A stretch of DNA of 64,000 bases from Gammaproteobacteria bacterium (GTDB taxonomy: Bacteria > Pseudomonadota > Gammaproteobacteria > JAJFJF01): assembly GCA_021774255.1 (NCBI GenBank), contig JAJFJF010000012.1:30259-94258 (forward strand), in the 5' to 3' direction. Position 1 is the stretch's first letter. Every line of letters begins with the position of its first letter. The notes under the pieces are model-generated. The model was not told where the DNA came from, did no database searches, and saw nothing but the letters and a program-made list of their open reading frames with translations. Positions 1 to 40,721 of the stretch are shown piece after piece. The position numbers and the translations under genes were made by a program.

Positions 1-771
1 AATCAAAAGAAAGGCTATTTTTACTACCTCTTGTTCTCCTGAGCTTAATTGGTTGAATGTGAAAGTTTTCTCAAAGCCTTCTATTTTATATTTGAAGTTA
101 CTCATCTTGCCTGAATCAACATTTTCTAAAGTTTTCCCAGGGAGTAATTTCCCAAAGGCTTCTTTATATTTAATGAATGGATTCTGAAATTGTGAGTTAA
201 TTTCCTCTAAAGTTTCCTTTCCATTCTCATTCGCTGTAACATATTTTGCTATTTCTCTCTCAAAACTAATCTGCTTTTCATGAATATCTTTTATTATCTT
301 GTCCCATTGAACATTGAAAGGCTCCAGGTACACATTTCTACTTATAGCCTGCTTTTCTGGATCATCAGCTCCACTTGACAAAGAAGTTTGTTTTATTTCA
401 TTAGCATTCCTATTCGTATCAATGTCAACAATAACACCTTCAATCAATGCGCCCTTAACAGGAGGGCTCATATGATTCGAAAGTTTTTCTGACCTCTCTC
501 CTTTTACTATTTCATGAGGCTCGCCAAAATTTATTTTCTCATCTTCTGTTTCTGGAATTATGGTTAAATTCAATGTGGTAGCTACTTTTTTAGAAGTATT
601 GTTGAAGGAAAATTGCTTGTTATGCTCCTGAAATGTTTTCAAAATTTCATTTTTTAAGAACGTTTTTCCTGACCCATTGACGCCAGCAATCATCGTTATA
701 TTTTTCATGTCTTTAATTATGAGTTTTTTTATTGGCCCAATATTTTCTGCTTCAATTTTACTTATCTTCAT
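1..771 (-). CDS. P-loop ATPase (AAA/ABC-type, abortive-infection-like), 3' part truncated by window edge
   Basis: The reverse translation from 771 reads MKISKIEAENIGPIKKLIIKDMKNITMIAGVNGSGKTFLKNEIL... with a Walker A motif GVNGSGKT. The reading frame stays open to position 1. GC is much lower (~35%) than in the rest of the window. This ORF is not in the supplied track because it is partial. Confidence 0.5.
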   Translation of the reverse strand, partial: MKISKIEAENIGPIKKLIIKDMKNITMIAGVNGSGKTFLKNEILKTFQEHNKQFSFNNTSKKVATTLNLTIIPETEDEKINFGEPHEIVKGERSEKLSNHMSPPVKGALIEGVIVDIDTNRNANEIKQTSLSSGADDPEKQAISRNVYLEPFNVQWDKIIKDIHEKQISFEREIAKYVTANENGKETLEEINSQFQNPFIKYKEAFGKLLPGKTLENVDSGKMSNFKYKIEGFEKTFTFNQLSSGEQEVVKIAFLLI

Positions 772-1061
772 GTTTGAAACTCCTAGTATATTTCAATAGC
801 ACCTATATATTACTCGCATTTTAGTTTAAAATTATTACTTAGCAATACAGTAGATCAGAAAGCCAAAAATTTCAGATCGACAACTTACGTTCTATTTAAA
901 AATAGATGAATCACAAAAACACACAACCTCAGCCACTCAAAAAAAGCACCCAAAGTCGACTTGTGTCATCCCCTCCCTTGCCCCCACCTCCTCCATCACA
1001 ACCCAGTGAAAGCAATATTGCTCGAAAGGGGATCTAGCACTAGTGAAACACTAGCTTATCA

Positions 1062-2255
1062 TTAGCCTGCTAGCTTTTTCTTCCGCAGCTGCTCTAAAAA
1101 ATCTTGCCAGGGAAGAACGGTAATTGCTGCGCCATTAGCTTCTTCCAGTGCAATTTTGCGTGCTTTTGGCACTGTAGATACAACAATGCTGTGCTTAGGT
1201 TGATATTCTTCAGTGAATGCAATGAGTCCCTTCAAATCACTCTTATCAATCTTGTCGCCTATTTTTACCTCAATGGCAACTTCGGCGTCTCCCAAGATAA
1301 AATCAACTTCTAGGCCGCTTTTTGTGCGCCAGAAAGTGATATCAAAATCTAGTTCATTTAGCCCTTTATAGGCCATCAGCTCCATCAATATAAAATGCTC
1401 AAAAGCCTTACCAGCATCATGGCCCTTTAATTCTGAGATCCTGCGTTTTAATAAACTATTCGCAGCACCCACATCAAAAAGGTAAAACTTAGGCATGCTC
1501 ATGATAATGTCACGCTTGCGTTGCTTTTTATATGGATAAATAAAATAGCCCGCTAGAGTATCAATCATGATTTGGTAATATTCTTTCACTGTTTTTGAAT
1601 CAATGGATGACTCTCTAGCAATACTTGAAAAGTTAATTAATTCACCATGTGAAAAAGCTAAAGCATCTAAGAATCTTGTGAACGCACCTAAATTACGCAC
1701 CAGTCCTTCTGCTTGAATTTCTTCAGTCAGATAATCTTGCCAATAAGCACGCAGTGAACGCCTTGCATCTTCTTGCAAATAATGAGAAGGAATTAAACCT
1801 GAGTTAAGTGCTCTTAATAGCTCAAAGCCAGGGATCTCAGGATAAACTAATGGATAAAAAGTAAATCGCCACGCCCTGCCCCCTAATAAATTTGCTGCGC
1901 CGCGTTTAAGTTTTCGTGCACTAGAGCCGCATAAGATAAAAGAGATCCCTGCATTTTCGATGAGCCAATGTACCTCATCCAGCAGTTCTGGTATTTTTTG
2001 TACTTCATCAATGATAATAGGAAGGCGTCGTTCGTTTTCCGGAAGTGCTAATATCTCTTCCCGCAAAAGGTGTGGTTGCTTGGTAAGACGAAGGTAAAGA
2101 TCGGTTTCAAGCAAATCATAGCGGACAGAATCAGGGAAATGCGACTTTAAATAAGTCGACTTCCCTGTTTTACGTGGTCCCCATAGGAATGCAGACTGCC
2201 CAGCAGGAAGCTGCAAATCTAGGTATCTTTTATATTTAACTATTTCGGACATCAT
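1062..2255 (-). CDS. AAA+ ATPase with C-terminal DUF4143-like domain (COG1373-type 'ATP-binding protein')
   Basis: The 397-aa protein carries a Walker A motif (GPRKTGKST) and a Walker B-like motif (IIIDEVQ). Its architecture is typical of the AAA_14+DUF4143 family. There is a distant paralog at 39465..40670. Confidence 0.75.
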   Translation of the reverse strand: MMSEIVKYKRYLDLQLPAGQSAFLWGPRKTGKSTYLKSHFPDSVRYDLLETDLYLRLTKQPHLLREEILALPENERRLPIIIDEVQKIPELLDEVHWLIENAGISFILCGSSARKLKRGAANLLGGRAWRFTFYPLVYPEIPGFELLRALNSGLIPSHYLQEDARRSLRAYWQDYLTEEIQAEGLVRNLGAFTRFLDALAFSHGELINFSSIARESSIDSKTVKEYYQIMIDTLAGYFIYPYKKQRKRDIIMSMPKFYLFDVGAANSLLKRRISELKGHDAGKAFEHFILMELMAYKGLNELDFDITFWRTKSGLEVDFILGDAEVAIEVKIGDKIDKSDLKGLIAFTEEYQPKHSIVVSTVPKARKIALEEANGAAITVLPWQDFLEQLRKKKLAG

Positions 2256-2256
2256 T

Positions 2257-2289
2257 CCGAAATAGTAGCACTAATTCGGAGCATGTTCC
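2257..2289. promoter_or_regulatory. 5'-leader hairpin (CCGAAATAGT-AGC-ACTAATTCGG) fused to near-palindrome GGAGCATGTTCC, immediately upstream of the ATPase start
   Basis: This was seen directly in the sequence. The same composite element (hairpin plus a GGAGYATRCTCC palindrome) recurs at 4172..4203. The palindrome alone recurs twice at 40672..40721. Confidence 0.4.
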
Positions 2290-2509
2290 ACAAATGGTTT
2301 TCAGCAATCAGTGAGAAGGAATTAAGACTAATTTGCAAGGCATTGATTTTAATAGAAAAACCCAACAATCTTGAGGAGGAGCCTTTGGTTGAAAATATAT
2401 CTCACGCCATAGTAAGGTAGGGTAAGAAATACCTTCATCGACCTACAAAATCGCTATCAAACAAATAAAGCCGCCAGAATAAGCGAAATCAATCCGGCGG
2501 GTATCTAAA

Positions 2510-4027
2510 TTATAAATCTTGGTGGTAAGGATAAGAAATATCCTCATCGATTTGCCAAACGGTATCAAAATCCCAACCGATAAAAGTCTCTTCTTTCATC
2601 ATTTCTTTTGTGGTTTCCTTACCTATTCCACCCTCTGAAGTATCTTGTTGTGAACTTTCAATATCCCAATAGCTTTCTACCACAATGGGATTACCGCCAT
2701 GGCTATTTCTAAATCCGACTAAACCACCGGCAGCGTCATATTCTGCAAATACAAATCCAACCGCATAGCTTTGACTAATTACAGCATCAGTACACGGGAG
2801 ACCTCCTGCAAAATTGAATCCAACTAGACCACCAACATAACCAAGTCCCTCAACACTGCCCATTGCATAGCTTTGGCTAATAATAGTATCAAACCAATGC
2901 GTGATATTTTTCCCAACTAAACCACCAACGTTTTCATGCCCTTTTGTATGTCCTGTCGCATAACTTACAGTAATAATGCCGTCATAATTTTCACCAACTA
3001 AACCTCCTACATTTCTAGAGCCTGTGACGTTTCCAGTAGCATAACTATATTCAATAATTGCACTTTGAGACATATTCCCATAACTATCTATACGACCGGC
3101 TAAACCACCTATATCTCGATATCCATATGAATCATTATGAATAGACACATTGCCTATTGCATAGCTATCAGTGATTTTTCCTGAGCTTTCACCAACCAAT
3201 CCTCCCACAGTATAATCCCCTATCACATTACCTGTGGCATAACTTGCTTCAATATCACCATGGTTACTTCCAATTAAGCCACCAACATAATATACGCCCG
3301 ATATGTCAGTTGTTGAGTAACTTTCCCTGACAATGTTACGATTTATCCCAATAAGCCCCCCCATATGATTACCCAAGGTGCTCTGCACAAGAATATCGCC
3401 ATGAGCATGACTATTAACTATCTCACTGCGACTCTCTCCTACCAATCCACCAAAAACTCTGTCAGATATCACAGTTGTATTGGTGTAGCTATTTTGCACA
3501 ACTTTATGTAAATGAAAACCAGATATACCACCAACGGTACTAGCACCTTCAATTGTGCCGCCTTCAACAAAACTATTATCGATTATTGTGTATTGACTAG
3601 TACCGGTTATGCCACCAACATAATTCTTACCAAAAATCATTGGGTCGATTAAACCTATATGGCTAATACGACCACCTTCTACTGTTTGGTGATGTGTATA
3701 GCCAAATAAGCCTACGTGATCTTGCATAGGACGATTAATGTGGAGATCTCTAATTTCATAACCTTGCCCATCTAAAACGCCAGCAAAAGGATTTTCATAA
3801 TCCCTACCAATAGGCATAAATCCACCATCATCACCATAATCCCAGGAGAAGCAGCTAAAACTTGTGCCCAATTGATAATGGGCAAACAAATTATCCTCCA
3901 TCATTTGGAGTTCAGCACAATTCATAATGATATAGGGATTGTTTTCTGAGCCATCTCCCTTGCTGAAAGCCATGATTGAAGTTGAGGTAAAAAGTAAAGA
4001 AATAGCTAATGTTGATATTTTTCTCAT
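2510..4027 (-). CDS. secreted single-module GLUG-like (VGGLVG) repeat protein
   Basis: The 505-aa protein has an N-terminal signal peptide (MRKISTLAISLLFTSTSIMA). An N-cap follows (CAELQ...DYGDDGGFMPIG...FAGVLDGQGYEIRDLHINRP...VGLFGY). About 12 repeats of the type VGGLVG-x-N-x-G-x-I-x-x-SYA-x-G-x-V come next. The C-cap is conserved (SYWDIESSQQDTSEGG...ETFIGWDFDTVWQIDEDISYPY). Confidence 0.8.
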   Translation of the reverse strand: MRKISTLAISLLFTSTSIMAFSKGDGSENNPYIIMNCAELQMMEDNLFAHYQLGTSFSCFSWDYGDDGGFMPIGRDYENPFAGVLDGQGYEIRDLHINRPMQDHVGLFGYTHHQTVEGGRISHIGLIDPMIFGKNYVGGITGTSQYTIIDNSFVEGGTIEGASTVGGISGFHLHKVVQNSYTNTTVISDRVFGGLVGESRSEIVNSHAHGDILVQSTLGNHMGGLIGINRNIVRESYSTTDISGVYYVGGLIGSNHGDIEASYATGNVIGDYTVGGLVGESSGKITDSYAIGNVSIHNDSYGYRDIGGLAGRIDSYGNMSQSAIIEYSYATGNVTGSRNVGGLVGENYDGIITVSYATGHTKGHENVGGLVGKNITHWFDTIISQSYAMGSVEGLGYVGGLVGFNFAGGLPCTDAVISQSYAVGFVFAEYDAAGGLVGFRNSHGGNPIVVESYWDIESSQQDTSEGGIGKETTKEMMKEETFIGWDFDTVWQIDEDISYPYHQDL

Positions 4028-4171
4028 TACGAACCCTCTATATTTAAAGATTTAAACGTGTTTGAAAACTAAAAAAATTTTAACAAAAATAACACCTAAA
4101 CAAAAGGCAAGCTCTGCTCGCCACAAGGCATTTCTAACTTGCGGAGAACAGGACAAGTTTATCTTACACTG

Positions 4172-4203
4172 CGAAATAGTCTCACTATTTCGGAGTATGC
4201 TCC
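4172..4203. promoter_or_regulatory. second copy of the hairpin (CGAAATAGT-CTC-ACTATTTCG) + GGAGTATGCTCC palindrome element
   Basis: It is a sequence relative of 2257..2289. It lies ~140 bp upstream of the GLUG gene start (4027, minus strand) and ~300 bp upstream of the LuxR pair. Confidence 0.35.
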
Positions 4204-4443
4204 CAAGATAGTTGAATCATTTAAAAAGAAGCCAGGCCAAGAATAAATTGTAACTATTTGATATTATTGTAATTTTAAGATTTTCGCTAATGGTGAAGTG
4301 TATATTTTCATATATTTCAGCAAATTATTCTATTCTGCCGTCAATTTGAGTTAGTTAACTTTATGCGATATAATGCGGAGCTTTGAAAGGAAAATAGTCT
4401 ACTTAGAGCAGGGATCTACCCTTCTCGCTTCTTTTTTACGTAG

Positions 4444-4465
4444 TTTTTGCTGCATGCAGTAAAAA
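4444..4465. promoter_or_regulatory. 22-bp near-perfect palindrome TTTTTGCTGCATGCAGTAAAAA (candidate operator) upstream of LuxR-like pair
   Basis: There is one mismatch relative to the perfect 24-bp copy at 5817..5840. It sits ~35 bp upstream of the ATG at 4501. Confidence 0.45.
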
Positions 4466-4500
4466 CACTGCTGAGATACAATAGGCACTCGAGGGGCTTC

Positions 4501-5034
4501 ATGTTAAGAGAAGAAACCATTCAAGATATAGCAGAGCCTGACGTGCGGGAAATTTGTCAGCCGCTATTCAATGCGACTGATATTTCTTACTTTCATCACG
4601 GGCGCGTTTACAAAGACGGCACAGCCTGCTCGCTTAACACCTCCCCGCGCTGGTTTGACTGCTATATAGAGGAAGGCTATCACCAAAAAGCCAACTATTT
4701 TCTCGACGCTGGCGTCTACTTGTTAACTGCCATGCCTGCTTATGCCGCTGAATGCGCTAGTTTGCGCTCTCAATTTGGTGTAGATCATAAGTTCGATATT
4801 ATCGTTAAAAAAGACACGCACCTTGATATATTTGGTTTTGGAGCAGATGCCCATAACGACAGTATCGTAGAATTTTATTTTAACAACCTGGATTTGTTAA
4901 AAGGCTTTTCTGAATATTTTCTAGATGTTGCTGAGCCGCTTATTAACAAAGCGCTCTTACCTGAAAATCGTCTTTTCTTACCTGAGCTCAAGAAAAACTT
5001 TGCCAACGCCAATACAATAGAAGGTGCAACATGA
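4501..5034 (+). CDS. LuxR-N-domain paralog lacking the HTH (possible partner/anti-activator)
   Basis: The track ORF starts at a TTG at 4447. The ATG at 4501 (MLREETIQDIAEP...) aligns with the start of the downstream paralog (MIKEDSIQTILAP...). The ~170-aa domain is ~50% identical to the N-domain of 5031..5795 (FHH.R.Y.DG...SLNTSPRW..CY..EG......Y). It has no C-terminal HTH. Its stop overlaps the next start (ATGA). Confidence 0.6.
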   Translation: MLREETIQDIAEPDVREICQPLFNATDISYFHHGRVYKDGTACSLNTSPRWFDCYIEEGYHQKANYFLDAGVYLLTAMPAYAAECASLRSQFGVDHKFDIIVKKDTHLDIFGFGADAHNDSIVEFYFNNLDLLKGFSEYFLDVAEPLINKALLPENRLFLPELKKNFANANTIEGAT

Positions 5035-5795
5035 TCAAAGAAGATAGCATCCAAACAATATTAGCACCACAAACACAAGAGATCTGTAAGCCGTTGTTTG
5101 ACTCAACAGATATCACCTATTTCCATCACGCACGCATCTATCATGATGGCAGAACAACCTCGCTTAACACCTCTCCTCGCTGGCTTAATTGCTATATGGA
5201 TGAAGGGCACTATAAAAACGCTGACTACTACTCCCTGACCCGCGCAGTGACGCTGGTATCTGCCATGCCAAGCCAGCATGCCGAAGCGGCTGCCATGCGA
5301 ACACATTGCAACTTAGATCATAAGTTTGACATCACCGTTAAAACTGACGAATACCTTGATGTGTTTGGATTTGCAACACATGCATATAATGACAAAATCA
5401 TTGGGTTCTATTTCCACAACATGGACTTATTAAAGCGTTTTACAGAATACTTCCTAGAGGCTTCGCAAACATTACAGTCCACTTTACTTTCCCCTGGCAA
5501 CCACTTTCATTATCCTGATCACAAAAAAATATTTTTCAAACCAGCAGAAGAGAAAAAGGCAAGGCATGACAGCTTTGTTTTTAACCGTCACTCTCTAAAA
5601 AAAGCGGCACTCTCACCTAAAGAGCATGAGGTGCTACTTTACTTGCAACAGGGTTACGCCTCAAAAGATATTGCCAGAGCAATGGATATTTCGACCAGAA
5701 CAGCCGAAAGTCATATTTTCAGGCTCAAAAAACGCCTTGGCGTTTATTCTAAATATCAACTTATTCAAGACATCAAGCCTCTGCGCACTGCATAG
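5031..5795 (+). CDS. LuxR-family transcriptional regulator (N-terminal sensor-like domain + C-terminal GerE/LuxR HTH)
   Basis: The C-terminal stretch LSPKEHEVLLYLQQGYASKDIARAMDISTRTAESHIFRLKKRLGV is a canonical LuxR/GerE helix-turn-helix. The N-domain is paralogous to the upstream gene. Confidence 0.75.
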   Translation: MIKEDSIQTILAPQTQEICKPLFDSTDITYFHHARIYHDGRTTSLNTSPRWLNCYMDEGHYKNADYYSLTRAVTLVSAMPSQHAEAAAMRTHCNLDHKFDITVKTDEYLDVFGFATHAYNDKIIGFYFHNMDLLKRFTEYFLEASQTLQSTLLSPGNHFHYPDHKKIFFKPAEEKKARHDSFVFNRHSLKKAALSPKEHEVLLYLQQGYASKDIARAMDISTRTAESHIFRLKKRLGVYSKYQLIQDIKPLRTA

Positions 5796-5816
5796 CCCCC
5801 TTCTCTCTATTAGGTG

Positions 5817-5840
5817 TTTTTTGCTGCATGCAGCAAAAAA
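5817..5840. promoter_or_regulatory. 24-bp perfect palindrome TTTTTTGCTGCATGCAGCAAAAAA between LuxR gene and downstream GLUG gene
   Basis: The palindrome is perfect and seen directly in the sequence. It is not a classical terminator, because the T-run precedes the stem and the A-run follows it on both strands. It sits ~90 bp upstream of the start of 5927. Confidence 0.5.
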
Positions 5841-5926
5841 TACTGCCGTTAATCTTCACTCCCTATTTTTAACAGGTCTAAAATTATCTAGACGCATCTA
5901 TTCATTCTCAATAAAAGGAATTTATC

Positions 5927-7465
5927 ATGAGGGAAAAACATCAAGCTCTAAAAACAGCCTTTCTTGGTATTGCTATCAGCAGCACCCCCATTTTTGCTGA
6001 CTCAAGCAACCTCGTGCAAAATATTGCTACGTGCGAAGCACTTCAAGAAATTGCATTTTCAGGCGACCTGGGCGGCAACTACGTTTTGACGCAAGACATC
6101 GATTGCACAGAAAGCGCAAAATGGGATGAAGAACAAGGCTTTTTTCCTGTCGGCAATAAAGAAACTCCTTTTACAGGCACATTAGAAGGCAATGGCCACA
6201 CTATTTTTAATTTGACAATTAATCGCCCTGCTCAATCCTATTTAGGTATATTTGGCGCAACAGATGAAGCCAGCATCACCAATCTTACGCTCAGTGAAGT
6301 CAATACCTTTGGCTTGGGCGGAAAATATGTTGCTGCTTTAATAGGAAAATCCAGTAATACCACTCTAAGCGCTATTAATTTAATGAATGTCAGTGTAGAA
6401 GGATTAGTGGATGTGGGTACGTTAACAGGCTATCACAACGGCTCAGAGAGCATTGATAAAATCAGCGTACAGAATGCCTTTGTTCGCGGCACATTTGCCG
6501 GTGGGCTCGTAGGGTATCTGCTTAACAGCACTATTCGTGACGCCTATGTAGATAATACTACACTTGCAACGGCCTATGCTGTCGGTGGACTGGTGGGTGC
6601 AGCTGAATTTTCAACCATTACTAATAGTGGCTTTAGCGGTGATATTGTGGGTGCGCATGCTGCTACCCCAACGGCTATTGGTGGCTTAGTAGGTATCACA
6701 TTAGATGTTTATATAGATAACAGTGTTGTCTTGAATGCACAGATCCACGGAGAAGAGTCCGTGGGCGGATTAGTCGGATATGGCGGGGTAAGCAAAATAC
6801 GAAATAGCCATGTGATTGACGCTGAAATAGCACACCACGTAAATGTCGGCTCAGGTAGAAACATGGGTGGCTTAATCGGTACCAGTTTACACGATCAATT
6901 AACCAACACTTCTGTGCAAAATACAAATATCACCGTCTGGGAAAAAGGCGGTGGCTTGATTGGAAGCGCAACGGGCACAGAGATCAGCCAATCTTTTGCA
7001 GATGGAAACGTGACGGGCACAGCAAGCACATACAGCAACATAGGTGGGTTAATTGGTGAAATCGATGCTACCCGCGCTGTCACGATTACCGATAGCTACT
7101 CTCACTCTTCAGTGACAGCCATGGGCGGCAGAGCCGGCGGTTTAGTGGGCCTCTTAGGCAATGGGCGCATTGAGCGCAGCTATGCCGCAGGGCGTGTAAC
7201 AGGCAATGGGAGCGGCCTGGGCGGCTTAGTAGGCGTCAGCTATTGTCACGATGAGAGTCCGGGGGAAGAAGGCGTACAAAAGGTATTTGAGAGCTATTGG
7301 GATACTCAAACAACCGGGCAAGCAGCATCAGCGGGCGGCGGGATCCCTAAATATCACGATGAAATGAAACGTCAAAGCACGTTTGTCGGCTGGGACTTCC
7401 CTGCTGTCTGGCAAATTGATGAGGGTGTGAGCTATCCCTATTTGGCTTGGGAAAGCACTTCTTAA
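5927..7465 (+). CDS. secreted single-module GLUG-like (VGGLVG) repeat protein
   Basis: The 512-aa protein has a signal peptide and an N-cap (CEALQEI...DIDCTESAKWDEEQGFFPVGNKETPFTGTLEGNGHTIFNLTINRP..YLGIFG). GGLVG repeats follow. The C-cap is SYWDTQTTGQAASAGGG...STFVGWDFPAVWQIDEGVSYPYL. Confidence 0.8.
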   Translation: MREKHQALKTAFLGIAISSTPIFADSSNLVQNIATCEALQEIAFSGDLGGNYVLTQDIDCTESAKWDEEQGFFPVGNKETPFTGTLEGNGHTIFNLTINRPAQSYLGIFGATDEASITNLTLSEVNTFGLGGKYVAALIGKSSNTTLSAINLMNVSVEGLVDVGTLTGYHNGSESIDKISVQNAFVRGTFAGGLVGYLLNSTIRDAYVDNTTLATAYAVGGLVGAAEFSTITNSGFSGDIVGAHAATPTAIGGLVGITLDVYIDNSVVLNAQIHGEESVGGLVGYGGVSKIRNSHVIDAEIAHHVNVGSGRNMGGLIGTSLHDQLTNTSVQNTNITVWEKGGGLIGSATGTEISQSFADGNVTGTASTYSNIGGLIGEIDATRAVTITDSYSHSSVTAMGGRAGGLVGLLGNGRIERSYAAGRVTGNGSGLGGLVGVSYCHDESPGEEGVQKVFESYWDTQTTGQAASAGGGIPKYHDEMKRQSTFVGWDFPAVWQIDEGVSYPYLAWESTS

Positions 7466-7553
7466 AGTGAATTATAAAGAAATCATTTCAACTGCCTATC
7501 GAGTAATGTTTAAAGCATTACCCGTTCCCTGCCTCATATCTTGATAAACTACA

Positions 7554-9170
7554 TTACGTTTTATGTGTAATATGCTTAAATCGCAAGCCTAAAAGATAAA
7601 GAGAAGCAAAGTAGATAATCACAGCTAAGCACAAGATCCCACCTAGATTTAAAAAGCGCAGCTGCCAGCCCCAAGCAAGCCATTGCTCAAGCCCGGGGGA
7701 CGCAAACCAGATCGCAGCAATCATGCAGAGGTTGGCGATGATGATGCGCAAAGCATACATGCCCCACCCTGCACAGGCTTTATAAATCTGACGGCGACGC
7801 AATAGATAAAAGAGTACGCCCGCATTAATAAACGCAGACAAGGTCGTTGCAAGCGCCAAGCCAGCATGTGCTAACGGCACAATCAAGATGGCATTAAAAA
7901 CAATATTGCTCACCAGCGCGAGCACGGCCACCTTCACGGGGGTTTTAATATCTTGCTTGGCATAAAAACTAGAGGCAAAGACTTTCACTAAAATAAACGC
8001 CTGCAGGCCAAAGGCATAAGCCAATAAGCTGCGGGTGCTCATGATCACATCATGCGTGTTGAACGCGCCATATTGGAATAAGGTTGTCAGCAAAGGGCCA
8101 GCCAAAATAAACAAACCAATGGCCGCGGGTAACGCGATTAAACATATACTACGCATCGCCCAGTCAATGGTATTAGAGAAGCCTGCGCCCTCCTCTTTGG
8201 CGTGCTGCCGAGATAAATGCGGCAAAATCACGGTAGCCAGCGCCACACCAAAAACGCCCAGTGGAAACTCCATTAAGCGATCAGAATAATACAGCCAAGA
8301 AATACTGCCTGCAGGTAAAAAAGAAGCAAATATCGTATCGACTAGCAAATTAATTTGAGCAACCGACACACCAAATAAGGCCGGCACCATCAAGCTCATG
8401 ATTTTTTTTACGCCAGGATGCTGCCAATCAACACGCCATCTTGGCATTAAGCCCAAACGCTGCAAAAAGGGAAACTGAAAGATGAGCTGCAATACCCCAC
8501 CCGCAAATACACCCCATGCCAACGCCGTAATCGGTTTACTCATTTGAGGCGCTAAGAAAACAGCCGCCAGGATCAAGGCAATATTCAGTAAACAAGGTGT
8601 CAGTGCCGGAATAGCAAAGCGCCCAAAGGTATTTAAAATTGCGCCCATAAAGGCGGTAAGCGAAATTAAAAGGATATACGGAAAAGTAATCCGCAGCATT
8701 TGCGTGGCTAAATCAAACTTTTCTGTTTCACCGATAAAGCCCGGTGCAAACACCATGATCAAGAGCGGTGCGGCTAAAATAGACAGCACCGTCACCAAGC
8801 CCACGATCAGCGCCAGGTTACCTGCCACACGGTCAATTAAGCCTTTAAGCTCATCGGGTGAATGTTTCGTTTGGTATTCAGACAGTACCGGCACAAAAGC
8901 GTGCGAAAAAGCCCCTTCTGCAAATAAGCGGCGCAAAAAATTGGGGATTTTAAAAGCAACGATAAAGGCGTCAACACCTGCCGTGGCACCAAAAAAGCGC
9001 GCAATGACGATATCGCGGATAAAGCCAAGCACACGCGAGATGGTGGTCATGCTGCCAGCAATACCCGTTGATTTCCAGAGCGATTTACCTGGTTTTTTGT
9101 CTAGACTTACTTCCTCTTGGTTTAGAGGATGGTTTTTTGATGCCTTCACTACACGACCCACAATTTTCAA
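7554..9170 (-). CDS. murJ: lipid II flippase MurJ (MviN)
   Basis: The sequence ISRVLGFIRDIVIARFFGATAGVDAFIVAFKIPNFLRRLFAEGAFSHAFVPVLSEY matches the conserved MurJ N-terminus. The protein has ~14 TM segments. The true start may lie slightly downstream of the track start. Confidence 0.9.
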   Translation of the reverse strand: MKIVGRVVKASKNHPLNQEEVSLDKKPGKSLWKSTGIAGSMTTISRVLGFIRDIVIARFFGATAGVDAFIVAFKIPNFLRRLFAEGAFSHAFVPVLSEYQTKHSPDELKGLIDRVAGNLALIVGLVTVLSILAAPLLIMVFAPGFIGETEKFDLATQMLRITFPYILLISLTAFMGAILNTFGRFAIPALTPCLLNIALILAAVFLAPQMSKPITALAWGVFAGGVLQLIFQFPFLQRLGLMPRWRVDWQHPGVKKIMSLMVPALFGVSVAQINLLVDTIFASFLPAGSISWLYYSDRLMEFPLGVFGVALATVILPHLSRQHAKEEGAGFSNTIDWAMRSICLIALPAAIGLFILAGPLLTTLFQYGAFNTHDVIMSTRSLLAYAFGLQAFILVKVFASSFYAKQDIKTPVKVAVLALVSNIVFNAILIVPLAHAGLALATTLSAFINAGVLFYLLRRRQIYKACAGWGMYALRIIIANLCMIAAIWFASPGLEQWLAWGWQLRFLNLGGILCLAVIIYFASLYLLGLRFKHITHKT

Positions 9171-13360: not shown

Positions 13361-13639
13361 TCCTTCACACAGGGGAACGCAAACACTTGTAGATGCACTC
13401 TTTAAAATCAAGCCTATTTTTGCTTGTTTTTCACTAACTCACTCTGCATAACCAAATAACCAAGCGTAGCCCCCCCTTCCACTTTGAATTCGTTTTGCCC
13501 CCTTGAAAGCACTTAGATTCATTTTGAGAACAAAATTTGTTCTCAGGATTTTACCGTGGGTTTAAAGAAAAAATTTGTTATACTCCTTGCGGTTAGAGAT
13601 TTAATCTCTGAACGACTTACTACAATAGGAGCTGATTAT

Positions 13640-14386
13640 ATGAAATTAAGGACCCTTGCACTCAGTTTAGTGGCCGTATTTGCGACGCAAGCGTGTGCTG
13701 ATAATAATCGAGATATTTCTCTTGATACCCAACAAGAAAAAGTAAGCTACAGTATTGGTGTGGACATTGGCCGTTCTTTAACTGCCAGTGAAATTGACAT
13801 CGACATGGATAGCTTTAGCCAAGGTATCAGCGATGGTGTCGCGGGCGATGACACCCTTCTCACTGATGAAGAAATGGAACAAACATTAATTTCTTTCCAG
13901 GAAGAACTTATGGCAGAGCAACAAGCTGAACAACAAGCCATTGCAGATGCCAATGCGGCACAAGAAGATACTTTCTTGTCTGCTAATGCAGCAAGAGAAG
14001 GTGTGGTTGTTTTAGACAGCGGCTTACAATACAGCATCATTGAAGAAGGTACTGGCATTAGCCCTGATAGCAACGACATTGTGTCTGTACACTATCAAGG
14101 CACACTGCCTGATGGCACCGTGTTTGATAGCTCTTATGAGCGCGGCGAACCTGCTAGCTTCCCCGTTAACGCTGTGATCAGCGGCTGGACAGAAGCCCTG
14201 CAACTCATGCAAGTAGGCGATAAATGGGAACTCTATATCCCTTCTGATTTAGCGTATGGTGAAACAGGCACTGCCGGCGTGATTGGCCCTAATCAAGTGT
14301 TGATCTTCGAAGTTGAATTATTAGATGTAGATCAAATAGAAAATGCTGCAGCTGTTTCAGTAGAAGATGGCGTTGATATGAGCTAA
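13640..14386 (+). CDS. mip: FKBP-type peptidyl-prolyl cis-trans isomerase, Mip/FkpA-like lipoprotein/periplasmic
   Basis: The ATG at 13640 is preceded by an AGGAGC ribosome-binding site. There is a signal peptide (MKLRTLALSLVAVFATQACA). An FkpA-type dimerisation helix is present. The FKBP domain is GVVVLDSGLQYSIIEEGTG..VHYQGTLPDGTVFDSSYERGEPASFPVN.VISGWTEALQLM..GDKWELYIPSDLAYGE, which resembles Legionella Mip. Confidence 0.85.
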   Translation: MKLRTLALSLVAVFATQACADNNRDISLDTQQEKVSYSIGVDIGRSLTASEIDIDMDSFSQGISDGVAGDDTLLTDEEMEQTLISFQEELMAEQQAEQQAIADANAAQEDTFLSANAAREGVVVLDSGLQYSIIEEGTGISPDSNDIVSVHYQGTLPDGTVFDSSYERGEPASFPVNAVISGWTEALQLMQVGDKWELYIPSDLAYGETGTAGVIGPNQVLIFEVELLDVDQIENAAAVSVEDGVDMS

Positions 14387-14448: not shown

Positions 14449-14720
14449 GTAGGGGCACGGCGTGCCGTGCCCTTCGCCAAAAATCACCTCTCACCTCTTG
14501 CTGCTCTTCACTATCCTGCTGGGCGAGCGCCGCTCGCCCCTACACATAAAACGTAGGTCATCCGTAGCCTTAGGAGCTCATCTTCCTAGCTTTTACCTGG
14601 AACTCATCGCTACAGAATACTCGGGCCACGGAAGGGCCAGGAAAGTTTTGTGTAGGGGCGAGCGGCGCTCGCCCAGCAAGGTTACGTAGTGCTGAAACGG
14701 CACGCTGTGTCCCTACAGGC
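14449..14720. repeat. GC-rich nested-palindrome element (MITE/REP-like): outer IR TGTAGGGGCACGGCGTGCC / GGCACGCTGTGTCCCTACA, inner perfect 27-bp IR CTGGGCGAGCGCCGCTCGCCCCTACAC
   Basis: The inverted repeats were seen directly in the sequence. A related short copy is at 37722..37808. The element lies between the convergent mip and rluB genes and is flanked by T-runs. Confidence 0.5.
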
Positions 14721-14726
14721 GAACAA

Positions 14727-15467
14727 TTAATTTTTTTTGCAGGTTTCCATCAGGCGATGGGTTTCTGCATCTGAGAGAATTTTATATTGGCCTGTTTTAA
14801 ATTGAGATGGCAGGCTAACAGAGCCGAAGCGCACACGAATTAAACGGCTCACCGTGGCACCTACCGCTTGCCACAAACGCCGCACCTCATGTTTACGGCC
14901 TTCTTTTAACACCACACGATACCAATGATTTGCACCGGCGCCACCGGCATCCGTAATGCGCGTAAAACGCGCCATACCGTCTTCTAGGCGCACACCTTGC
15001 TTCAATTGAGTAAGCGTGGCGTTATCGACTTTACCCAGTACTCTCACAGCATATTCACGTTCGACCTCAAAAGAAGGATGCATCATGGCGTGCGCCAATG
15101 CACCATCGTTGGTGAGTAATAATAACCCCATGGTATTGATGTCTAATCGGCCGATGTTAATCCAGCGGCCTGCAGGCGGCGGTGGCAAGCGATCAAAGAC
15201 CGTACGGCGCCCTTCTGGATCAGAACGGGTGCAAAGCTCACCCTCAGGTTTATAGTAGAGTAATACGCGACGCGGTGGGGAGGTTTTTGTTTGCGGGCGG
15301 TTGAGTGGACGGCCATCAACACTGAGCTTGTCAGAAGTGGCAACGCGGTCGCCAATGTGGGCCGTTTGGCCGTTAACGGTGATTCTGCCAGCCTTGATCC
15401 AGCGTTCCATTTCGCGGCGAGAACCAACACCAAGATCGGCTAATACTTTGTGAAGTTTTTCGGTCAT
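14727..15467 (-). CDS. rluB: 23S rRNA pseudouridine synthase RluB
   Basis: The N-terminus is an S4 domain (KLHKVLADLGVGSRREMERWIKAGRITVNG). The catalytic region is RsuA/RluB-type (GRLDINTMGLLLLTNDG). Its position downstream of scpB is the conserved one. Confidence 0.85.
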   Translation of the reverse strand: MTEKLHKVLADLGVGSRREMERWIKAGRITVNGQTAHIGDRVATSDKLSVDGRPLNRPQTKTSPPRRVLLYYKPEGELCTRSDPEGRRTVFDRLPPPPAGRWINIGRLDINTMGLLLLTNDGALAHAMMHPSFEVEREYAVRVLGKVDNATLTQLKQGVRLEDGMARFTRITDAGGAGANHWYRVVLKEGRKHEVRRLWQAVGATVSRLIRVRFGSVSLPSQFKTGQYKILSDAETHRLMETCKKN

Positions 15468-19337: not shown

Positions 19338-22300
19338 TTAACGCCAGGCAAATGCCCACATTCCGCGCAGATCGCGCCACCCCTTGTGCAAAGCAGGTAA
19401 GTTATAAAGCAAACGAATCAACATCGCCAGGGTACTCAGCAGAGAAAATAGCAATCGTGCGAGAACAATAGCACTGAGTCCTTGCCGAGCCAGGTACGTT
19501 GCACCAATAGTAAATTGAGGTAAATCTTCTACAGCAACACAGAGCAGCTTAAGAAGTACCAGCTGTGTATCCGCATATTCCGTTCGGGTTCGCAGGCGCA
19601 CCAGATCAGGACCCAGCACGGGCATAAACAATAGCCAATAAGGTAAATCTCCTGCCCGACGAGGCAACCAAGTGCCGTACATCAATTTCAAAGAAAGCAA
19701 CCCAATTCCCAATGAGGCCAGCAAAAAGAATACAAGTGACACCAAAACCAAATCGTTTTGGTGATCTTCATCCATTGCTATGATCAGCGAGCCATCCAGA
19801 ACTTTATCAGCGATCCACCAGAAAAATCCCCAGGTAGCCATCACTTGGTAGCGCTGCAGCAGAAGCAACCAGGCTACTGGTAGACAATAAAACATTTGCG
19901 TCAACCAGCGGTGCTTCCATGTCAAAGTAGGCACCGTTAGGCGCGACCAATCTTGCTCATCGGGTGATAGCAGTTCATTACCCTCAAGCAGGACATCAGC
20001 AAGCACGCTTGAATGTTGTCGTACTGCTGCCTTGAGTGATCCCAGCGCGCGTTTATCGACTCGATTATAGCGGATATCGAGGTGCTGTAGTGTGGGAAAC
20101 GTCCCCAGCTGTTCAAATAAGCAGCGGATCCCCAGCCCCGTGATCTTGTTATGAGAAGCTTTCAGGTGCGTCACAGGGGTTGCTTGCAAAGCACGTAAGA
20201 GCCGTTCAAACGCGACGTCATCCAAACCCAACCCGCTGACATCTACTTCGCTTGGTCCATTTCTTCCCTGCTGCACAAGCAGCTGCAACAAGATCTCGAA
20301 GCTCAAACGCCAGCGATTAGATTTTGAATCGGCGGCCTGCATGAAGTGGTAGACGAGCATCCACCCGTTTTTTTCAATGAGTAGTTGGATAAGTCTCTTT
20401 CCTTTTCGTGTGCATATAAAAGGATTATCCCCTTTCCTGACTAACGCGATGACCTCGCTGGAACGATTACGTGTACCAGCACTTAACAGAGCAATACAAC
20501 CTTCTGGGGTAACCTGGTTTAGCTGTGGTGGATCTGGAAAAAACCACCAGCTTTCAAATAGCCCCACCTGCCCCTCTGTCAAACGCACAAAACTTTGAAG
20601 TCGCTTACTGCAAACCAGCTTAGCGGTGGGTTCAGCAGAAACGTCTACTCCCAAATGAGGCTTTAAATAAGCAGCGATCTGGGGATAGCGTTGCTGGCTG
20701 ATAGCATAAGCTGCACGACACAAAGCGGCCTTTTGCTCTCCCAATCTATTTTCTTCACAAAGAAATTGAACAACATCATAATGCCCCCCTTTTGCGGCCC
20801 ACTCGATAGCGGTGTCACCTTTCACTTTGCGCGTCGCCATACTTGCATCTTGCGTATAAAGCCAGCGCACTGCCGCCAAGTTGCCTATCTCCGCCATCCA
20901 GGCCAAACGATCAGGGCTTTCTAGTAAGCGCTTCAAGCGACGGGAAGCGCGCCAACGATGCAAGACCGTTTCTAACCACAAGCCTGTCGCCATTAGTGTT
21001 ACGGTCAAAATCCAGCGTGGCATCCATTTTTCATAAAACGTGGTGTCGCCTGGGCAAGGCCCTTCAGGAACAGTGGGCGCCTTATCTGGCACCAAATCAC
21101 AATGATAAGGGTAGCTCTTGCCGTGCGCTATGCACCAGATGGTCGGGTCCCAATCTTGGAAAGTTTCCCAGTGATACATTGCTGGCGTTTTTTTACCGTA
21201 GGCACGCAGGCCAAAACTGCCACTTTCTCCTGCTGGAAAGTCTTGCCCCGTTGCATTGATATCCCAGTAAGACGCTTCAAAAATGCCATCTGCTCTTGAT
21301 CCCACCAAGCCACCTTTGGCCTGGTTGGACTGCACACAACCGGCGGTGTAACTAAAACGAACATGATCATTGGCTCCCACACTATGACCGACTAGACCAC
21401 CGGCTTCATCTTTGCCTGTGACAGGCCCCAAAGAATAACAGTATTCAACCATACCGTCGTTTTCGCCAATCACCCCGCCTACTTGGCGGCCCGTGCCTTC
21501 GATAGCGCCTGTACCATAACAATGTGTGAGCACGCCTCCGGCAGTTTGCCGTCCAACCAAGCCAACATTGTCACGACCGGTGACACGACTGGTGGCATAG
21601 CTGCGATCAATGATGCCTGCATTCAGGCCAGCGAGCGCACCCACATCATCACCTTCACTGAGTAGCCGCCCAAAAGCAACGCTCTCAATAACATGTCCCT
21701 CAGCACGGTTATCCCCCACTAAACTTGCAGCACGATCGCCGCGAGCTGTTACCGTGTTATTAACCCAACAACGCAGGAAGATCCCCAGATTTTGGCCAGC
21801 AAGCCCACCCACAGCAACATTGCCTTCAACTTCGCTGTAGACTGCTAATGCTTCAGCCCGCCCCAGGTTGTTGCCAATGGCGCCGCCAACAATTCGAATA
21901 CCCGTCACGGGGCCGTAGGCGGTACTGTGGTAAACGTCTCCACTGCTTTCGCCTATCAATCCACCCGTGGCACTGTCATAGCCAATGACGGCGGCCCATG
22001 ATTGACTGGTGTTGAGCAACCCTTCTAGATGCCCTACCAAGCCACCGACACGATAACTTCCCGTCACGGTTCCAGCAGCAGTACTGTTTGTGATAACACC
22101 AATAATTTTGCTCTGCCCTACTAAACCACCAATGCTCTCACCCGGATCAGCGCCTATCACATCACTTTGCACATGAAGAGCTGTCAGTGTGCCGCCATTG
22201 TGACCAACAGCGCCCCCTACAAAAGCATGCCCTCTCACAATTCCCGAACTGATGCTGTCTGTGACCGTGCTATAGTAATCGTTAGATCCCACCAACCCAC

Positions 22301-23483: not shown

Positions 23484-23564
23484 CCTGCCTTGGCAAAATA
23501 CTCTCTCCTGATCAATGGCGTAACAAGCAAAGGTAAGATACAAACACGCCATTCAAACGCGAAC

Positions 23565-39464: not shown

Positions 39465-40670
39465 CTAATAAATAAATCCAAAATAAGGCAGAGGGATTGT
39501 TTTATGGCTAGGCAGTAAGATGTCATCTTTTACTAAAAATGCATTTTTCTGCCCTTTAATTTGTGTAGTTGTTTTATTTTTCCCGCCAATCTCGAAAACA
39601 GCATCATCGATCTGGTAATCGCCTGCTTTGCTATGAAGGATCTCAAGGCCCGCCCCCTTAATAGACTGCACAAAAAAGAGCTCTCTAATAGTACCCAAAC
39701 CATCATCCTTGAGTGCATTTGATTGCAATGCATAGTGCAAGTTCGTATTACTTAAGAAAGCTTTCTCTGGTTTTCTCAAACCAACGTTCCCTGTTTCAGC
39801 TGGATACAGAACTTCAACCAACCCGGTTTCATGTAAAATATTTAAGTAATTAGCGGCTGTTTTATCGTCAATGCCCATGTTTTTGCTGATGTTATAGGTG
39901 CTAATTTTGCCCGGTGGTATTGTTGACAAAAATCTTAAGATTTTGCTGAAATAGCGCAAATTAGTTGTTTTTAACTGATAAAAATTTGCAATGTCCTCAT
40001 AAATGGTTTTTTCTACAATACTTAATATTTTCTCATAGTACGACAACGCATCTTCCATAAAAAATGGATAGAAACCTTGTTGTAGATATTGCTTGAAATG
40101 CCCCAACAACTTAGGGAAATTTGAAATATTCTCTCGTGGCATTTTGCCCAAAAGTAATTGAGAAAAATCAACTATTGGGAAATTTTCAGCTTGTGAAAAA
40201 TTGAGATACTCCCTAAATGATAAGCCCGGCAAACGATATAACTTGGCTCGTCGTGATAAATCATAACTACCCTTAATGAGATCCAGGCTAGAACTACCTG
40301 AAAACACTATTTTTAGCGAAGGAAAAGCATCATATAAGTTCTTTAGCTCCTGGTTCCAGTTTTTGTAACGATGGATCTCATCAATAAAAAATAACTCAAT
40401 CCCTTCCGTAAGCACTAAATCTTCAACAAATTGATAAATAGTGACATCATTAAAATAAATATGATCAGCAGAAAAGTAGAAAACTTTACTCCTATCGTCA
40501 CATTTATTTTTTATATACTGCAGTAGCAATGTCGTTTTTCCCACACCTCGTGGACCAACAAGGCCAGTCAGACGATTATTGATATTAAAACTCGAATAGA
40601 GGTAGCGGTAAAAATCACTATCCACTTCATCTAGTAAGCGTTCAAATATCAGTCCTAAAGATTTCTGCAC
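39465..40670 (-). CDS. AAA+ ATPase with DUF4143-like C-terminal domain (second paralog; GTG start)
   Basis: The Walker A motif is GPRGVGKTTL and the Walker B motif is FFIDEIH. The architecture matches 1062..2255. The AT-rich codon usage suggests foreign origin. Confidence 0.7.
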   Translation of the reverse strand: MQKSLGLIFERLLDEVDSDFYRYLYSSFNINNRLTGLVGPRGVGKTTLLLQYIKNKCDDRSKVFYFSADHIYFNDVTIYQFVEDLVLTEGIELFFIDEIHRYKNWNQELKNLYDAFPSLKIVFSGSSSLDLIKGSYDLSRRAKLYRLPGLSFREYLNFSQAENFPIVDFSQLLLGKMPRENISNFPKLLGHFKQYLQQGFYPFFMEDALSYYEKILSIVEKTIYEDIANFYQLKTTNLRYFSKILRFLSTIPPGKISTYNISKNMGIDDKTAANYLNILHETGLVEVLYPAETGNVGLRKPEKAFLSNTNLHYALQSNALKDDGLGTIRELFFVQSIKGAGLEILHSKAGDYQIDDAVFEIGGKNKTTTQIKGQKNAFLVKDDILLPSHKTIPLPYFGFIY

Positions 40671-40671
40671 A

Positions 40672-40721
40672 AGAGTATACTCCGAGAAAATTGCACCATT
40701 TCTCAGAGTATACTCCGAGAA
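40672..40721. promoter_or_regulatory. two direct copies of AGAGTATACTCCGAGAA (palindromic core GAGTATACTC) immediately upstream of the ATPase start
   Basis: This was seen directly (copies at 40672-40688 and 40705-40721). The core is related to the GGAGYATRCTCC palindromes at 2278 and 4192. Confidence 0.4.

What the first reader, a model, noticed from the sequence alone, without database searches (positions are those of the whole stretch)
4444..5840. Translationally coupled tandem LuxR-type paralogs (one lacking its HTH) bracketed by a 24-bp perfect palindrome, sandwiched between two single-module GLUG genes
The ORFs at 4501..5034 and 5031..5795 share a ~170-aa N-domain (~50% identity) and overlap by ATGA. 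Only the second keeps the LuxR/GerE HTH. The first therefore looks like a domain-only paralog that could heterodimerise with the full-length regulator and titrate it. TTTTTTGCTGCATGCAGCAAAAAA is a perfect 24-bp palindrome downstream of the pair and ~90 bp upstream of the GLUG gene at 5927. A 22/24 copy sits in the pair's own promoter. LuxR-family proteins bind ~20-bp dyad boxes. This suggests autoregulation plus control of the adjacent secreted GLUG protein.
Basis: partly seen in the sequence, partly recalled or inferred. Interest (0 to 1): 0.55.

Follow-up and report, generated by a model that had tools for sequence, protein, structure and literature searches.

The report
LuxR-type regulator with sensor-only paralog
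Two overlapping genes encode a LuxR-type regulator and a sensor-only copy of it that lacks the DNA-binding part, flanked by two copies of a 24-bp palindrome that is probably the regulator's binding site; this is a new example of a known regulatory design, not a new kind of system.

Summary
ORF A (4501..5034, 177 aa) and ORF B (5031..5795, 254 aa) overlap by ATGA and share 51% identity over 168 aa. Only B has a GerE/LuxR HTH. The 24-bp palindrome (5817..5840) and a 21/24 copy (4443..4466) are its only occurrences in 64 kb, against 0 in shuffles. Two GLUG paralogs flank the pair.

A sensor-only LuxR paralog that antagonises a full-length one is already known experimentally (TrlR/TraR, CerN/CerM). 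A palindrome as local operator has a precedent in Legionella LexR1.

Operator function and heterodimerisation remain inferred. All three proteins are singletons in public data, so conservation could not be tested. Because the two genes are co-translated, a ligand-dependent partner switch is more likely than simple titration. Verdict: a plausible, tidy module and a new member of a known kind, of moderate interest.

The parts
4443..4466 (.). Upstream copy of the palindrome (GTTTTTGCTGCATGCAGTAAAAAC). It is itself a 24-bp palindrome with one G/T mismatch, and ends 35 nt before ORF A's ATG. Candidate operator for autoregulation.
4501..5034 (+). ORF A, 177 aa: a LuxR-type ligand-binding domain only, with no HTH. 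SD-like GAGGGG at 4491..4496.
5031..5795 (+). ORF B, 254 aa: the same ligand-binding domain (aa 1-~165), a disordered linker, and a GerE/LuxR HTH (aa 193-245). Its start overlaps A's stop (ATGA). Its own SD-like AAGGTG lies at 5021..5026.
5817..5840 (.). Perfect 24-bp palindrome TTTTTTGCTGCATGCAGCAAAAAA, 22 nt after B's stop and 87 nt before the GLUG2 ATG. Candidate operator for GLUG2.
4346..4374 (+). Best sigma-70-like promoter match upstream of the pair (TTGAGT-17-TATAAT, 10/12). If it is used, palindrome copy 1 is centred near +73.
   Evidence: consensus match only
5855..5884 (+). Promoter-like site upstream of GLUG2 (TTCACT-18-TAAAAT, 9/12). If it is used, palindrome copy 2 is centred near -62.
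   Evidence: consensus match only
5927..7465 (+). GLUG2, 512 aa: a Glug-motif protein with a signal-like N-terminus. Putative regulated target.
2510..4027 (-). GLUG1, 505 aa: a Glug-motif paralog (29% identity to GLUG2), transcribed divergently from the pair. Palindrome copy 1 lies 416 nt upstream of its ATG, so regulation by it is uncertain.

Best explanation
This is a local small-molecule-responsive regulatory module of the LuxR 'solo' type.

ORF B is a transcription factor. Its N-terminal domain has the fold of the autoinducer-binding domain of quorum-sensing LuxR receptors, but a divergent pocket, so the ligand is probably not an acyl-homoserine lactone. Its C-terminal GerE HTH binds DNA as a dimer.

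ORF A is an old duplicate (51% identity) of the ligand-binding domain alone. It is made from the same mRNA and translationally coupled to B.

By analogy with CerN/CerM and TrlR/TraR, A pairs with B through the ligand-binding domains. A heteromer has only one HTH and cannot occupy a dyad site. Because the A:B ratio is fixed by co-translation, the interaction is most likely ligand-gated (a partner switch) and not simple titration.

The 24-bp palindrome is the operator of the B dimer. The copy upstream of GLUG2 controls that secreted Glug protein. The copy between the promoter region and A's start codon gives autoregulation, probably negative.

Shown: the gene anatomy, the domain folds, and the uniqueness and placement of the palindromes. 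Inferred: DNA binding, heterodimerisation, ligand dependence, and the sign of regulation.

Rough component probabilities: A and B are LuxR-type LBD proteins, 0.9. The palindromes are B's operator, 0.55. A modulates B by direct heteromerisation, 0.5.
For: Anatomy: ATGA overlap, 51% identity, HTH only in B.

A is not decaying: the ORF is intact, an SD is present, all invariant and nearly invariant family residues are kept, and the model is confident.

Family: 1,634 representative clusters, nearly all 250-290 aa with an LBD plus a LuxR HTH. Clustered paralogs occur in L007, L009, L010 and L011. A 197-aa LBD-only gene sits 25 nt downstream of a full-length member in L011. Eight of the best 150 representatives are 167-200 aa.

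Palindrome: only two sites in 64 kb, both within 60 nt of the ends of the pair, none in shuffles. There are no further sites or half-site clusters, including upstream of the four other GLUG genes. Neither strand gives a canonical terminator.

Precedents: CerN (HTH-less, encoded next to CerM) binds CerM in an AHL-dependent way and blocks its DNA binding (PMC11655674). TrlR forms inactive heterodimers with TraR (PMC13043044). Legionella LexR1 is a LuxR-type regulator with an unrecognised N-domain that binds an inverted repeat upstream of adjacent genes (PMC13555631).

No LuxI-type synthase was found among the scanned ORFs, which is consistent with a solo.
Against: There is no direct evidence for DNA binding, heteromer formation or a ligand.

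There is no comparative support. A, B and GLUG2 are each singletons among about 15 billion proteins. The closest relatives are 25-40% identical. Their loci show no comparable palindromes and no GLUG neighbours.

Seventeen exact matches to the 20-mer in metagenomes are in contexts with no gene of this family. The sequence alone is therefore not diagnostic.

The core spacing CTG-N4-CAG differs from canonical lux/tra boxes.

Sequence similarity to the AHL-receptor LBD is not significant (hhalign E 0.085), and Pfam Autoind_bind does not match.

Copy 2 also forms a stable RNA hairpin just after B's stop (-16.4 kcal/mol, z -3.3).

The similarity between the two copies extends into their flanks (36 nt at 83%). 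That could reflect duplicated DNA and not selection for binding.
Confidence: 0.5

Rival explanations
1. The palindromes act at the RNA level and not as a protein-binding operator. Copy 2 would be a 3' stem-loop of the A-B transcript (terminator or stabiliser), and copy 1 a 5'-UTR hairpin that modulates translation or stability.
For: Copy 2 lies 22 nt after B's stop and folds into a 14-bp hairpin (-16.4 kcal/mol, z -3.27; 1 of 200 shuffles folds as well). The single core substitution in copy 1 (C to T) keeps a G-U pair on the + strand RNA. If the 4346..4374 promoter is used, copy 1 is transcribed within the leader.
Against: No U tract follows the stem on either strand: the T run precedes the stem and the A run follows it, the reverse of an intrinsic terminator. 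The terminator scan finds nothing there. The fold around copy 1 is not significant (z -1.56). Near-identity of stem, loop and AT flanks between the two copies is more than a hairpin function requires. There are no Rfam matches.
Confidence: 0.15
2. The two repeats are leftovers or boundaries of a DNA rearrangement. They would be direct repeats bracketing a 1.37-kb regulator cassette inserted between two GLUG paralogs, or binding sites for some other protein, with no functional link to ORF B.
For: The similarity extends beyond the palindrome (36 nt at 83%, 4430-4465 vs 5804-5839). The repeats bracket exactly the A-B pair. The first ~6.3 kb of the window has lower G+C (0.33-0.43 vs 0.47 overall). 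A second, unrelated palindrome family similarly brackets GLUG1. LuxR regulators of this type in Legionella move by horizontal transfer (PMC13555631).
Against: No integrase, transposase or recombinase is adjacent. There is no match to attC or dif-like architecture by inspection. Only two copies occur in 64 kb, so it is not a dispersed REP or MITE family. The flanking similarity is AT-rich and modest.
Confidence: 0.15
3. ORF A is a non-functional remnant of a tandem duplication, and B works alone as an ordinary LuxR solo.
For: Truncated family members that look like pseudogenes exist elsewhere: L002 stops at the start of the HTH, and L014 and L016 are split.
Against: A is an intact 177-codon ORF at 51% identity to B, so the duplication is old, yet it keeps every invariant and nearly invariant family residue. 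It has an SD and a 4-nt coupled overlap with B. It folds as a complete domain with pLDDT 90. It ends about 10 residues after the domain boundary with no HTH debris. LBD-only members recur (L011; short representatives).
Confidence: 0.15

Closest known systems
CerN/CerM of Cereibacter sphaeroides (PMC11655674)
   Same: An HTH-less LuxR paralog is encoded next to a full-length LuxR paralog. The duplication is old (31% identity there, 51% here). The truncated protein binds the full-length one and prevents DNA binding, and the interaction depends on ligand.
   Different: CerN and CerM have a Pfam-recognisable Autoind_bind domain and sit beside a LuxI/LuxR pair (CerI/CerR). Here the LBD is not recognised by Pfam, no synthase is seen, and the two genes are translationally coupled. 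The interaction here is inferred only.
TrlR/TraR of Agrobacterium tumefaciens octopine-type Ti plasmids (PMC13043044; Chai, Zhu and Winans 2001 as cited in PMC11655674)
   Same: A LuxR-type protein lacking the DNA-binding domain forms inactive heterodimers with the full-length regulator (dominant-negative).
   Different: TrlR is a recent frameshifted copy (88% identical to TraR), encoded elsewhere and regulated separately. Here the copy is old, adjacent and co-translated, which argues against simple titration.
LexR1 (lpg2524) and other local LuxR-type regulators of Legionella (PMC13555631)
   Same: About 250-290 aa, with a C-terminal LuxR HTH and an N-terminal sensory domain without a recognisable family. 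It sits next to its target genes and binds an inverted repeat upstream of them. It is activated by an unidentified small ligand and has a patchy, horizontally transferred distribution.
   Different: No sensor-only partner is described for LexR1. Its repeat contains GTC...GAC, unlike the one here. Whether LexR1 belongs to the same N-domain family was not tested because no sequence was available. The targets here are Glug proteins, not known Dot/Icm effectors.
Canonical AHL receptors (LuxR, LasR, TraR) and their lux-type boxes
   Different: No Pfam Autoind_bind match. The pocket Asp-Pro is not conserved in the family. There is no LuxI. The operator core is CTG-N4-CAG flanked by T6/A6, not CTG-N10-CAG.

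Membership tests
LuxR/FixJ (GerE) HTH transcription factors | C-terminal four-helix GerE-type HTH (Pfam PF00196) | tested here: met
   ORF B: PF00196 E 1.1e-13, 51.1 bits against a cutoff of 23.5, aa 193-245. The profile hits the PDB HTH domains of RhlR, GerE, VraR, EvgA, SdiA and TraR. ORF A: no match, so A is not a member.
Quorum-sensing-type LuxR receptors (autoinducer-binding domain plus HTH) | Sequence match to the autoinducer-binding domain (Pfam PF03472 Autoind_bind) | tested here: not met
   No Pfam hit on the N-domain of A, of B, or of 47 family members. A profile search of PDB with the N-domain found nothing. hhalign against LasR gave only a 22-residue local match, E 0.085.
Quorum-sensing-type LuxR receptors (autoinducer-binding domain plus HTH) | Alpha-beta-alpha sandwich fold of the ligand-binding domain | tested here: met
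Quorum-sensing-type LuxR receptors (autoinducer-binding domain plus HTH) | Six conserved pocket residues (TraR W57, Y61, D70, P71, W85, G113; as listed in PMC11655674) | tested here: inconclusive
   In the weak hhalign alignment, W51 and Y55 of A and B line up with LasR W60 and Y64, and W51 is invariant in the family. The Asp-Pro position is not conserved in the family consensus. No structure-based residue mapping was possible.
Quorum-sensing-type LuxR receptors (autoinducer-binding domain plus HTH) | Cognate LuxI-type synthase nearby (its absence defines a 'solo') | tested here: not met
   The neighbours are Glug proteins, a DUF4143 ATPase, MurJ-like and Fic proteins. No Autoind_synth was found among the ORFs scanned across the window. 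The rest of the genome was not available.
HTH-less LuxR antagonists (TrlR, CerN) | LuxR-type ligand-binding domain present, DNA-binding domain absent | tested here: met
   ORF A is 177 aa, a complete LBD model with pLDDT 90.2, with no HTH.
HTH-less LuxR antagonists (TrlR, CerN) | A full-length LuxR paralog in the same cell as partner | tested here: met
   ORF B is immediately downstream, 51% identical over the LBD, with an ATGA overlap.
HTH-less LuxR antagonists (TrlR, CerN) | Physical heteromer with the partner that prevents DNA binding | not testable with these tools
   No multimer prediction or experiment was available.
LexR1-type local LuxR regulators of Legionella | Orthology to lpg2524 (at least 60% identity in PMC13555631) | not tested
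The only Legionella relative seen was a 28.8%-identical plasmid gene of L. adelaidensis.
LexR1-type local LuxR regulators of Legionella | Inverted repeat at a fixed distance from the -10 element upstream of adjacent target genes | tested here: inconclusive
   Two copies of one palindrome lie next to the regulator genes. A TAnnnT-type hexamer starts 21.5-22.5 nt from the centre of each (TACAAT 4477-4482; TAATCT 5850-5855; read). The scan's own best promoters lie elsewhere, and there are only two sites.

The most novel reading that the evidence does not exclude
A and B form an obligate or ligand-switched asymmetric receptor: a sensor-only subunit translationally coupled to a sensor-plus-HTH subunit. 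It would belong to a large, unannotated LuxR-solo family with more than 1,600 clusters. That family may include the Legionella regulators described as lacking a recognisable N-domain. In this uncultured, probably host-associated gammaproteobacterium, the receptor would sense a host- or nutrient-derived molecule to switch on a secreted Glug protein.
Probability: 0.15. Interest if true: 0.6.

Novelty: new member of a known kind. Interest (0 to 1): 0.35.

Why it matters
If confirmed, this would be a third example, in a distant lineage, of a LuxR regulator controlled by a sensor-only paralog. It would be the first in which the two are co-translated, which bears on whether such pairs act as inhibitors or as two-subunit sensors.

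The N-domain family is large, with 1,634 clusters at 50% identity, and is invisible to Pfam. The result assigns it the autoinducer-receptor fold. That gives a structural starting point for ligand hunting in LuxR solos of Legionellales-like bacteria. It also names one candidate regulator and operator for the otherwise uncharacterised Glug-protein expansion in this genome.

Tried and rejected
1. Word-indexed protein search with ORF B returned only B itself. The exhaustive profile search was needed to see the family.

2. The search for related loci with the broad alignment failed for lack of a conserved stretch. With the two-paralog alignment it gave 17 loci, all at 25-32% identity over the full domain, and the source genome was absent. 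Phylogenetic footprinting of the palindrome was therefore impossible.

3. The metagenome scan for the 20-mer TTTTGCTGCATGCAGYAAAA gave 17 loci. None has an ORF matching the LBD or HTH profiles, and their flanks are unrelated to those here apart from duplicates within the set. This is uninformative about the source genome.

4. Palindrome scans around family members in 22 other loci found no shared operator-like motif.

5. Looking for the palindrome or its half-sites upstream of the other four GLUG(+ankyrin) genes found nothing.

6. The terminator reading was rejected as the main explanation: there is no U tract.

7. Rfam gave no match in 2000..7600.

8. Sequence-level homology to LasR was not significant, so membership in Autoind_bind is not claimed.

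9. Exact-sequence lookup for the source contig failed. Cluster lookup gave no accession or name. The organism is not identified; relatives and context (Mip-like FKBP, ankyrin proteins) suggest a Legionellales-like gammaproteobacterium, but this is inference.

10. The LexR1 paper has no supplements held as text, so its consensus and sequence could not be compared.

Full report
**Observation**

The region reads as the first-stage reader described it. ORF A runs 4501..5034 (177 aa from the ATG, with GAGGGG 5 nt upstream). The N-termini of A and B align from residue 1, so the upstream TTG at 4447 is unlikely to be the start. ORF B runs 5031..5795 (254 aa). B's start overlaps A's stop in ATGA, and B has its own AAGGTG 4 nt upstream. 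BLASTP gives 51% identity over 168 residues.

Pfam and NCBIfam place a GerE/LuxR HTH at residues 193-245 of B. Neither library recognises anything in A or in the first 170 residues of B.

The perfect 24-bp palindrome TTTTTTGCTGCATGCAGCAAAAAA is at 5817..5840. The second copy, GTTTTTGCTGCATGCAGTAAAAAC, is at 4443..4466. It matches 21/24, not 22/24, and is itself a palindrome apart from one G/T position. With up to three mismatches in the 22-nt core these are the only matches in 64 kb, and none appeared in 100 shuffles. The window has 20 palindromes with 10-nt arms, against 3-9 in shuffles, so palindromes as such are not rare. This one is the only perfect 24-mer.

The flanking genes 2510..4027 (minus strand) and 5927..7465 (plus strand) are Glug-motif proteins with signal-like N-termini. 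They are 29% identical to each other.

**What the proteins are**

A profile of the two N-domains, searched against 1.84 billion representative proteins, found 1,634 relatives (409 at E<=1e-10). Nearly all are 250-290 aa. Of 47 sampled, 36 carry the GerE HTH and none has a Pfam family on the N-domain. No solved structure matches the N-domain by sequence.

AlphaFold2 models built with a 16-sequence alignment are confident: B has pLDDT 81.5 and A has pLDDT 90.2 with pTM 0.86.

- Foldseek aligns the B model over its whole length with LasR, SdiA, RhlR, QscR, CviR and TraR. It also matches isolated LasR ligand-binding domains at TM 0.6-0.65.

B is therefore a two-domain LuxR-type receptor whose sensor domain has diverged beyond sequence recognition. 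A is that sensor domain alone.

I verified a LasR sequence against PDB and compared it with the family profile. Only a weak local match appeared (E 0.085). It lines up the invariant W51 and Y55 with LasR W60 and Y64. The Asp-Pro that follows in AHL receptors is not conserved in the family. I therefore do not file the domain under Autoind_bind, and I infer a non-AHL ligand. No LuxI-type synthase was found among the ORFs scanned in the window.

**Is ORF A a live gene?**

At 51% identity the duplication is old. Even so, A keeps all five invariant and all ten nearly invariant positions of the family alignment. It has a ribosome-binding site and a coupled overlap with B, and it ends about ten residues after the domain boundary with no HTH debris.

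Clustered paralogs are common in this family. L007 has three in a row, two of them 11 nt apart. L010 and L009 have two each. L011 has four. L011 also contains a 197-aa sensor-only gene 25 nt downstream of a full-length one. Eight of the best 150 representatives are 167-200 aa and span the whole domain. Some truncated relatives do look like pseudogenes (L002, L014, L016). I keep decay as a rival at low weight.

**How it probably works**

- TrlR, a truncated TraR-like protein, forms inactive heterodimers with TraR (PMC13043044).
- CerN, an HTH-less LuxR homolog encoded next to CerM, binds CerM only when AHL is present and blocks its DNA binding. CerM and CerN are 31% identical, so that pair also comes from an old duplication (PMC11655674).

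The present pair resembles CerN/CerM more than TrlR/TraR. Translational coupling adds a constraint: A and B are made together at a fixed ratio. Constitutive titration would then simply cancel B. A ligand-dependent switch of partners, or an obligate two-subunit sensor, is the more sensible reading. This is inference; no tool here could test an A:B interface.

**The palindromes**

*For an operator:*
- The sequence occurs only twice in the window, and both copies lie within 60 nt of the ends of the A-B pair.
- It is dyad-symmetric and of the size bound by GerE-type HTH dimers.
- It is not upstream of the four other GLUG genes or anywhere else.
- In Legionella, the LuxR-type regulator LexR1 has an N-domain described as unrecognisable. 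It binds an inverted repeat upstream of neighbouring genes and responds to an unidentified ligand (PMC13555631).

*Geometry, from consensus matches only:*
- Copy 2 would be centred near -62 of the TTCACT-18-TAAAAT site upstream of GLUG2. That position is compatible with activation.
- Copy 1 lies about +73 from the best promoter-like site (4346..4374), or over the -35 region of a weaker TACAAT (4477..4482). Both positions favour repression, that is, negative autoregulation.

*Against:*
- The core is CTG-N4-CAG flanked by T6/A6, not the CTG-N10-CAG of lux-type boxes.
- The similarity between the copies extends into the flanks (36 nt at 83%). That could mean duplicated DNA.
- Copy 2 folds into a stable RNA hairpin 22 nt after B's stop (-16.4 kcal/mol, z -3.3).

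The hairpin has no U tract on either strand, and the terminator scan ignores it. A classical terminator is therefore unlikely.

**Why conservation could not be used**

A, B and GLUG2 are each single-member clusters, seen on one contig among about 15 billion proteins. The best relatives are 25-40% identical. The closest ones sit in MFS transporter-LuxR-glyoxalase operons without Glug genes. Their surroundings show no comparable palindrome.

Seventeen exact matches to the 20-mer in metagenome contigs are in contexts with no gene of this family. This says nothing about the source genome.

**Verdict**

- The sensor domain has the LuxR autoinducer-receptor fold.
- The sensor-only partner is more likely a ligand-gated partner than a titrator.
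- The upstream site looks repressive.

The design is a known one (TrlR/TraR, CerN/CerM, LexR1-type local regulators). I rate the locus as a new member of a known kind, with moderate interest. The by-product of wider use is the fold assignment for a large, unannotated LuxR-solo family.

Noticed in passing
window 2258..2279 and 4172..4193 (extending to 2289 and 4203): A second, unrelated palindromic repeat, CGAAATAGTnnCACTAnTTCGG followed by GGAGyATGyTCC, occurs exactly twice in 64 kb (shuffles give a mean of 0.03). One copy is 3 nt upstream of the start of the DUF4143/AAA_14 ATPase gene (1062..2255, minus strand). The other is 145 nt upstream of GLUG1. GLUG1 is thus bracketed by this repeat in the same way that the LuxR pair is bracketed by the other one.
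   Followed up: partly
window 40672..40688 and 40703..40721; compare 2275..2289 and 4189..4203: GAGTATACTCCGAGAA-type palindromes sit directly upstream of the second DUF4143/AAA_14 ATPase gene (39465..40670, minus strand). They resemble the GGAGyATGyTCC element upstream of the first ATPase gene and of GLUG1. A 15-mer pattern gives 12 matches against 3.9 expected. This may be an operator shared by these ATPase genes.
   Followed up: partly
window 2510..4027, 5927..7465, 19338..23552, 23785..27678, 43500..51713, 51983..60505: Six Glug-motif genes lie in one 64-kb window. Four of them (1,297 to 2,840 aa) also carry ankyrin repeats, and they are arranged as two divergent pairs. An expansion of ankyrin-bearing proteins suggests a host-associated lifestyle. 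None of the large genes has the LuxR-pair palindrome upstream.
   Followed up: partly
window 4106..4122 (minus strand) and 4478..4507 (minus strand): A terminator-like hairpin with a T run (GGCGAGCAGAGCTTGCC TTTTGTTT) lies on the minus strand inside the 474-nt GLUG1/LuxR intergenic region, upstream of GLUG1. It is downstream of a minus-strand promoter-like site at 4507..4478. A ~370-nt minus-strand leader or small RNA that reads through palindrome copy 1 is conceivable. There is no Rfam match.
   Followed up: no
window 1..6300: G+C is 0.33-0.43 across the ATPase, GLUG1, the LuxR pair and the start of GLUG2, against 0.47 for the whole window. This may be a horizontally acquired island.
   Followed up: no
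window 14520..14540 and 14655..14675: Two GC-rich palindromes lie 135 nt apart, TGGGCGAGCGCCGCTCGCCCC and GGGGCGAGCGGCGCTCGCCCA. They are close to reverse complements of each other. They sit between the Mip-like FKBP gene (13556..14386) and a pseudouridine synthase gene (14727..15467, minus strand).
   Followed up: no
L037 3680..6211, L038 106..2637, L039 175..2762; L011 3453..8792; L007 5549..8756: The closest relatives of ORF B (34-35% identity) lie in MFS transporter-LuxR-glyoxalase gene strings, with the LuxR start overlapping the end of the transporter gene. Other family members form clusters of three or four paralogs. The family's usual neighbours are transporters and small-molecule enzymes, not Glug proteins.
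   Followed up: partly
plasmid hits H2-H15 (Ralstonia solanacearum megaplasmids), e.g. L036 3983..4756: A 25.7%-identical full-length family member is conserved on the megaplasmids of about 130 Ralstonia solanacearum-complex records. In most of them it is not in the PLSDB gene table; where listed it is annotated only as a 'LuxR family transcriptional regulator'.
   Followed up: no
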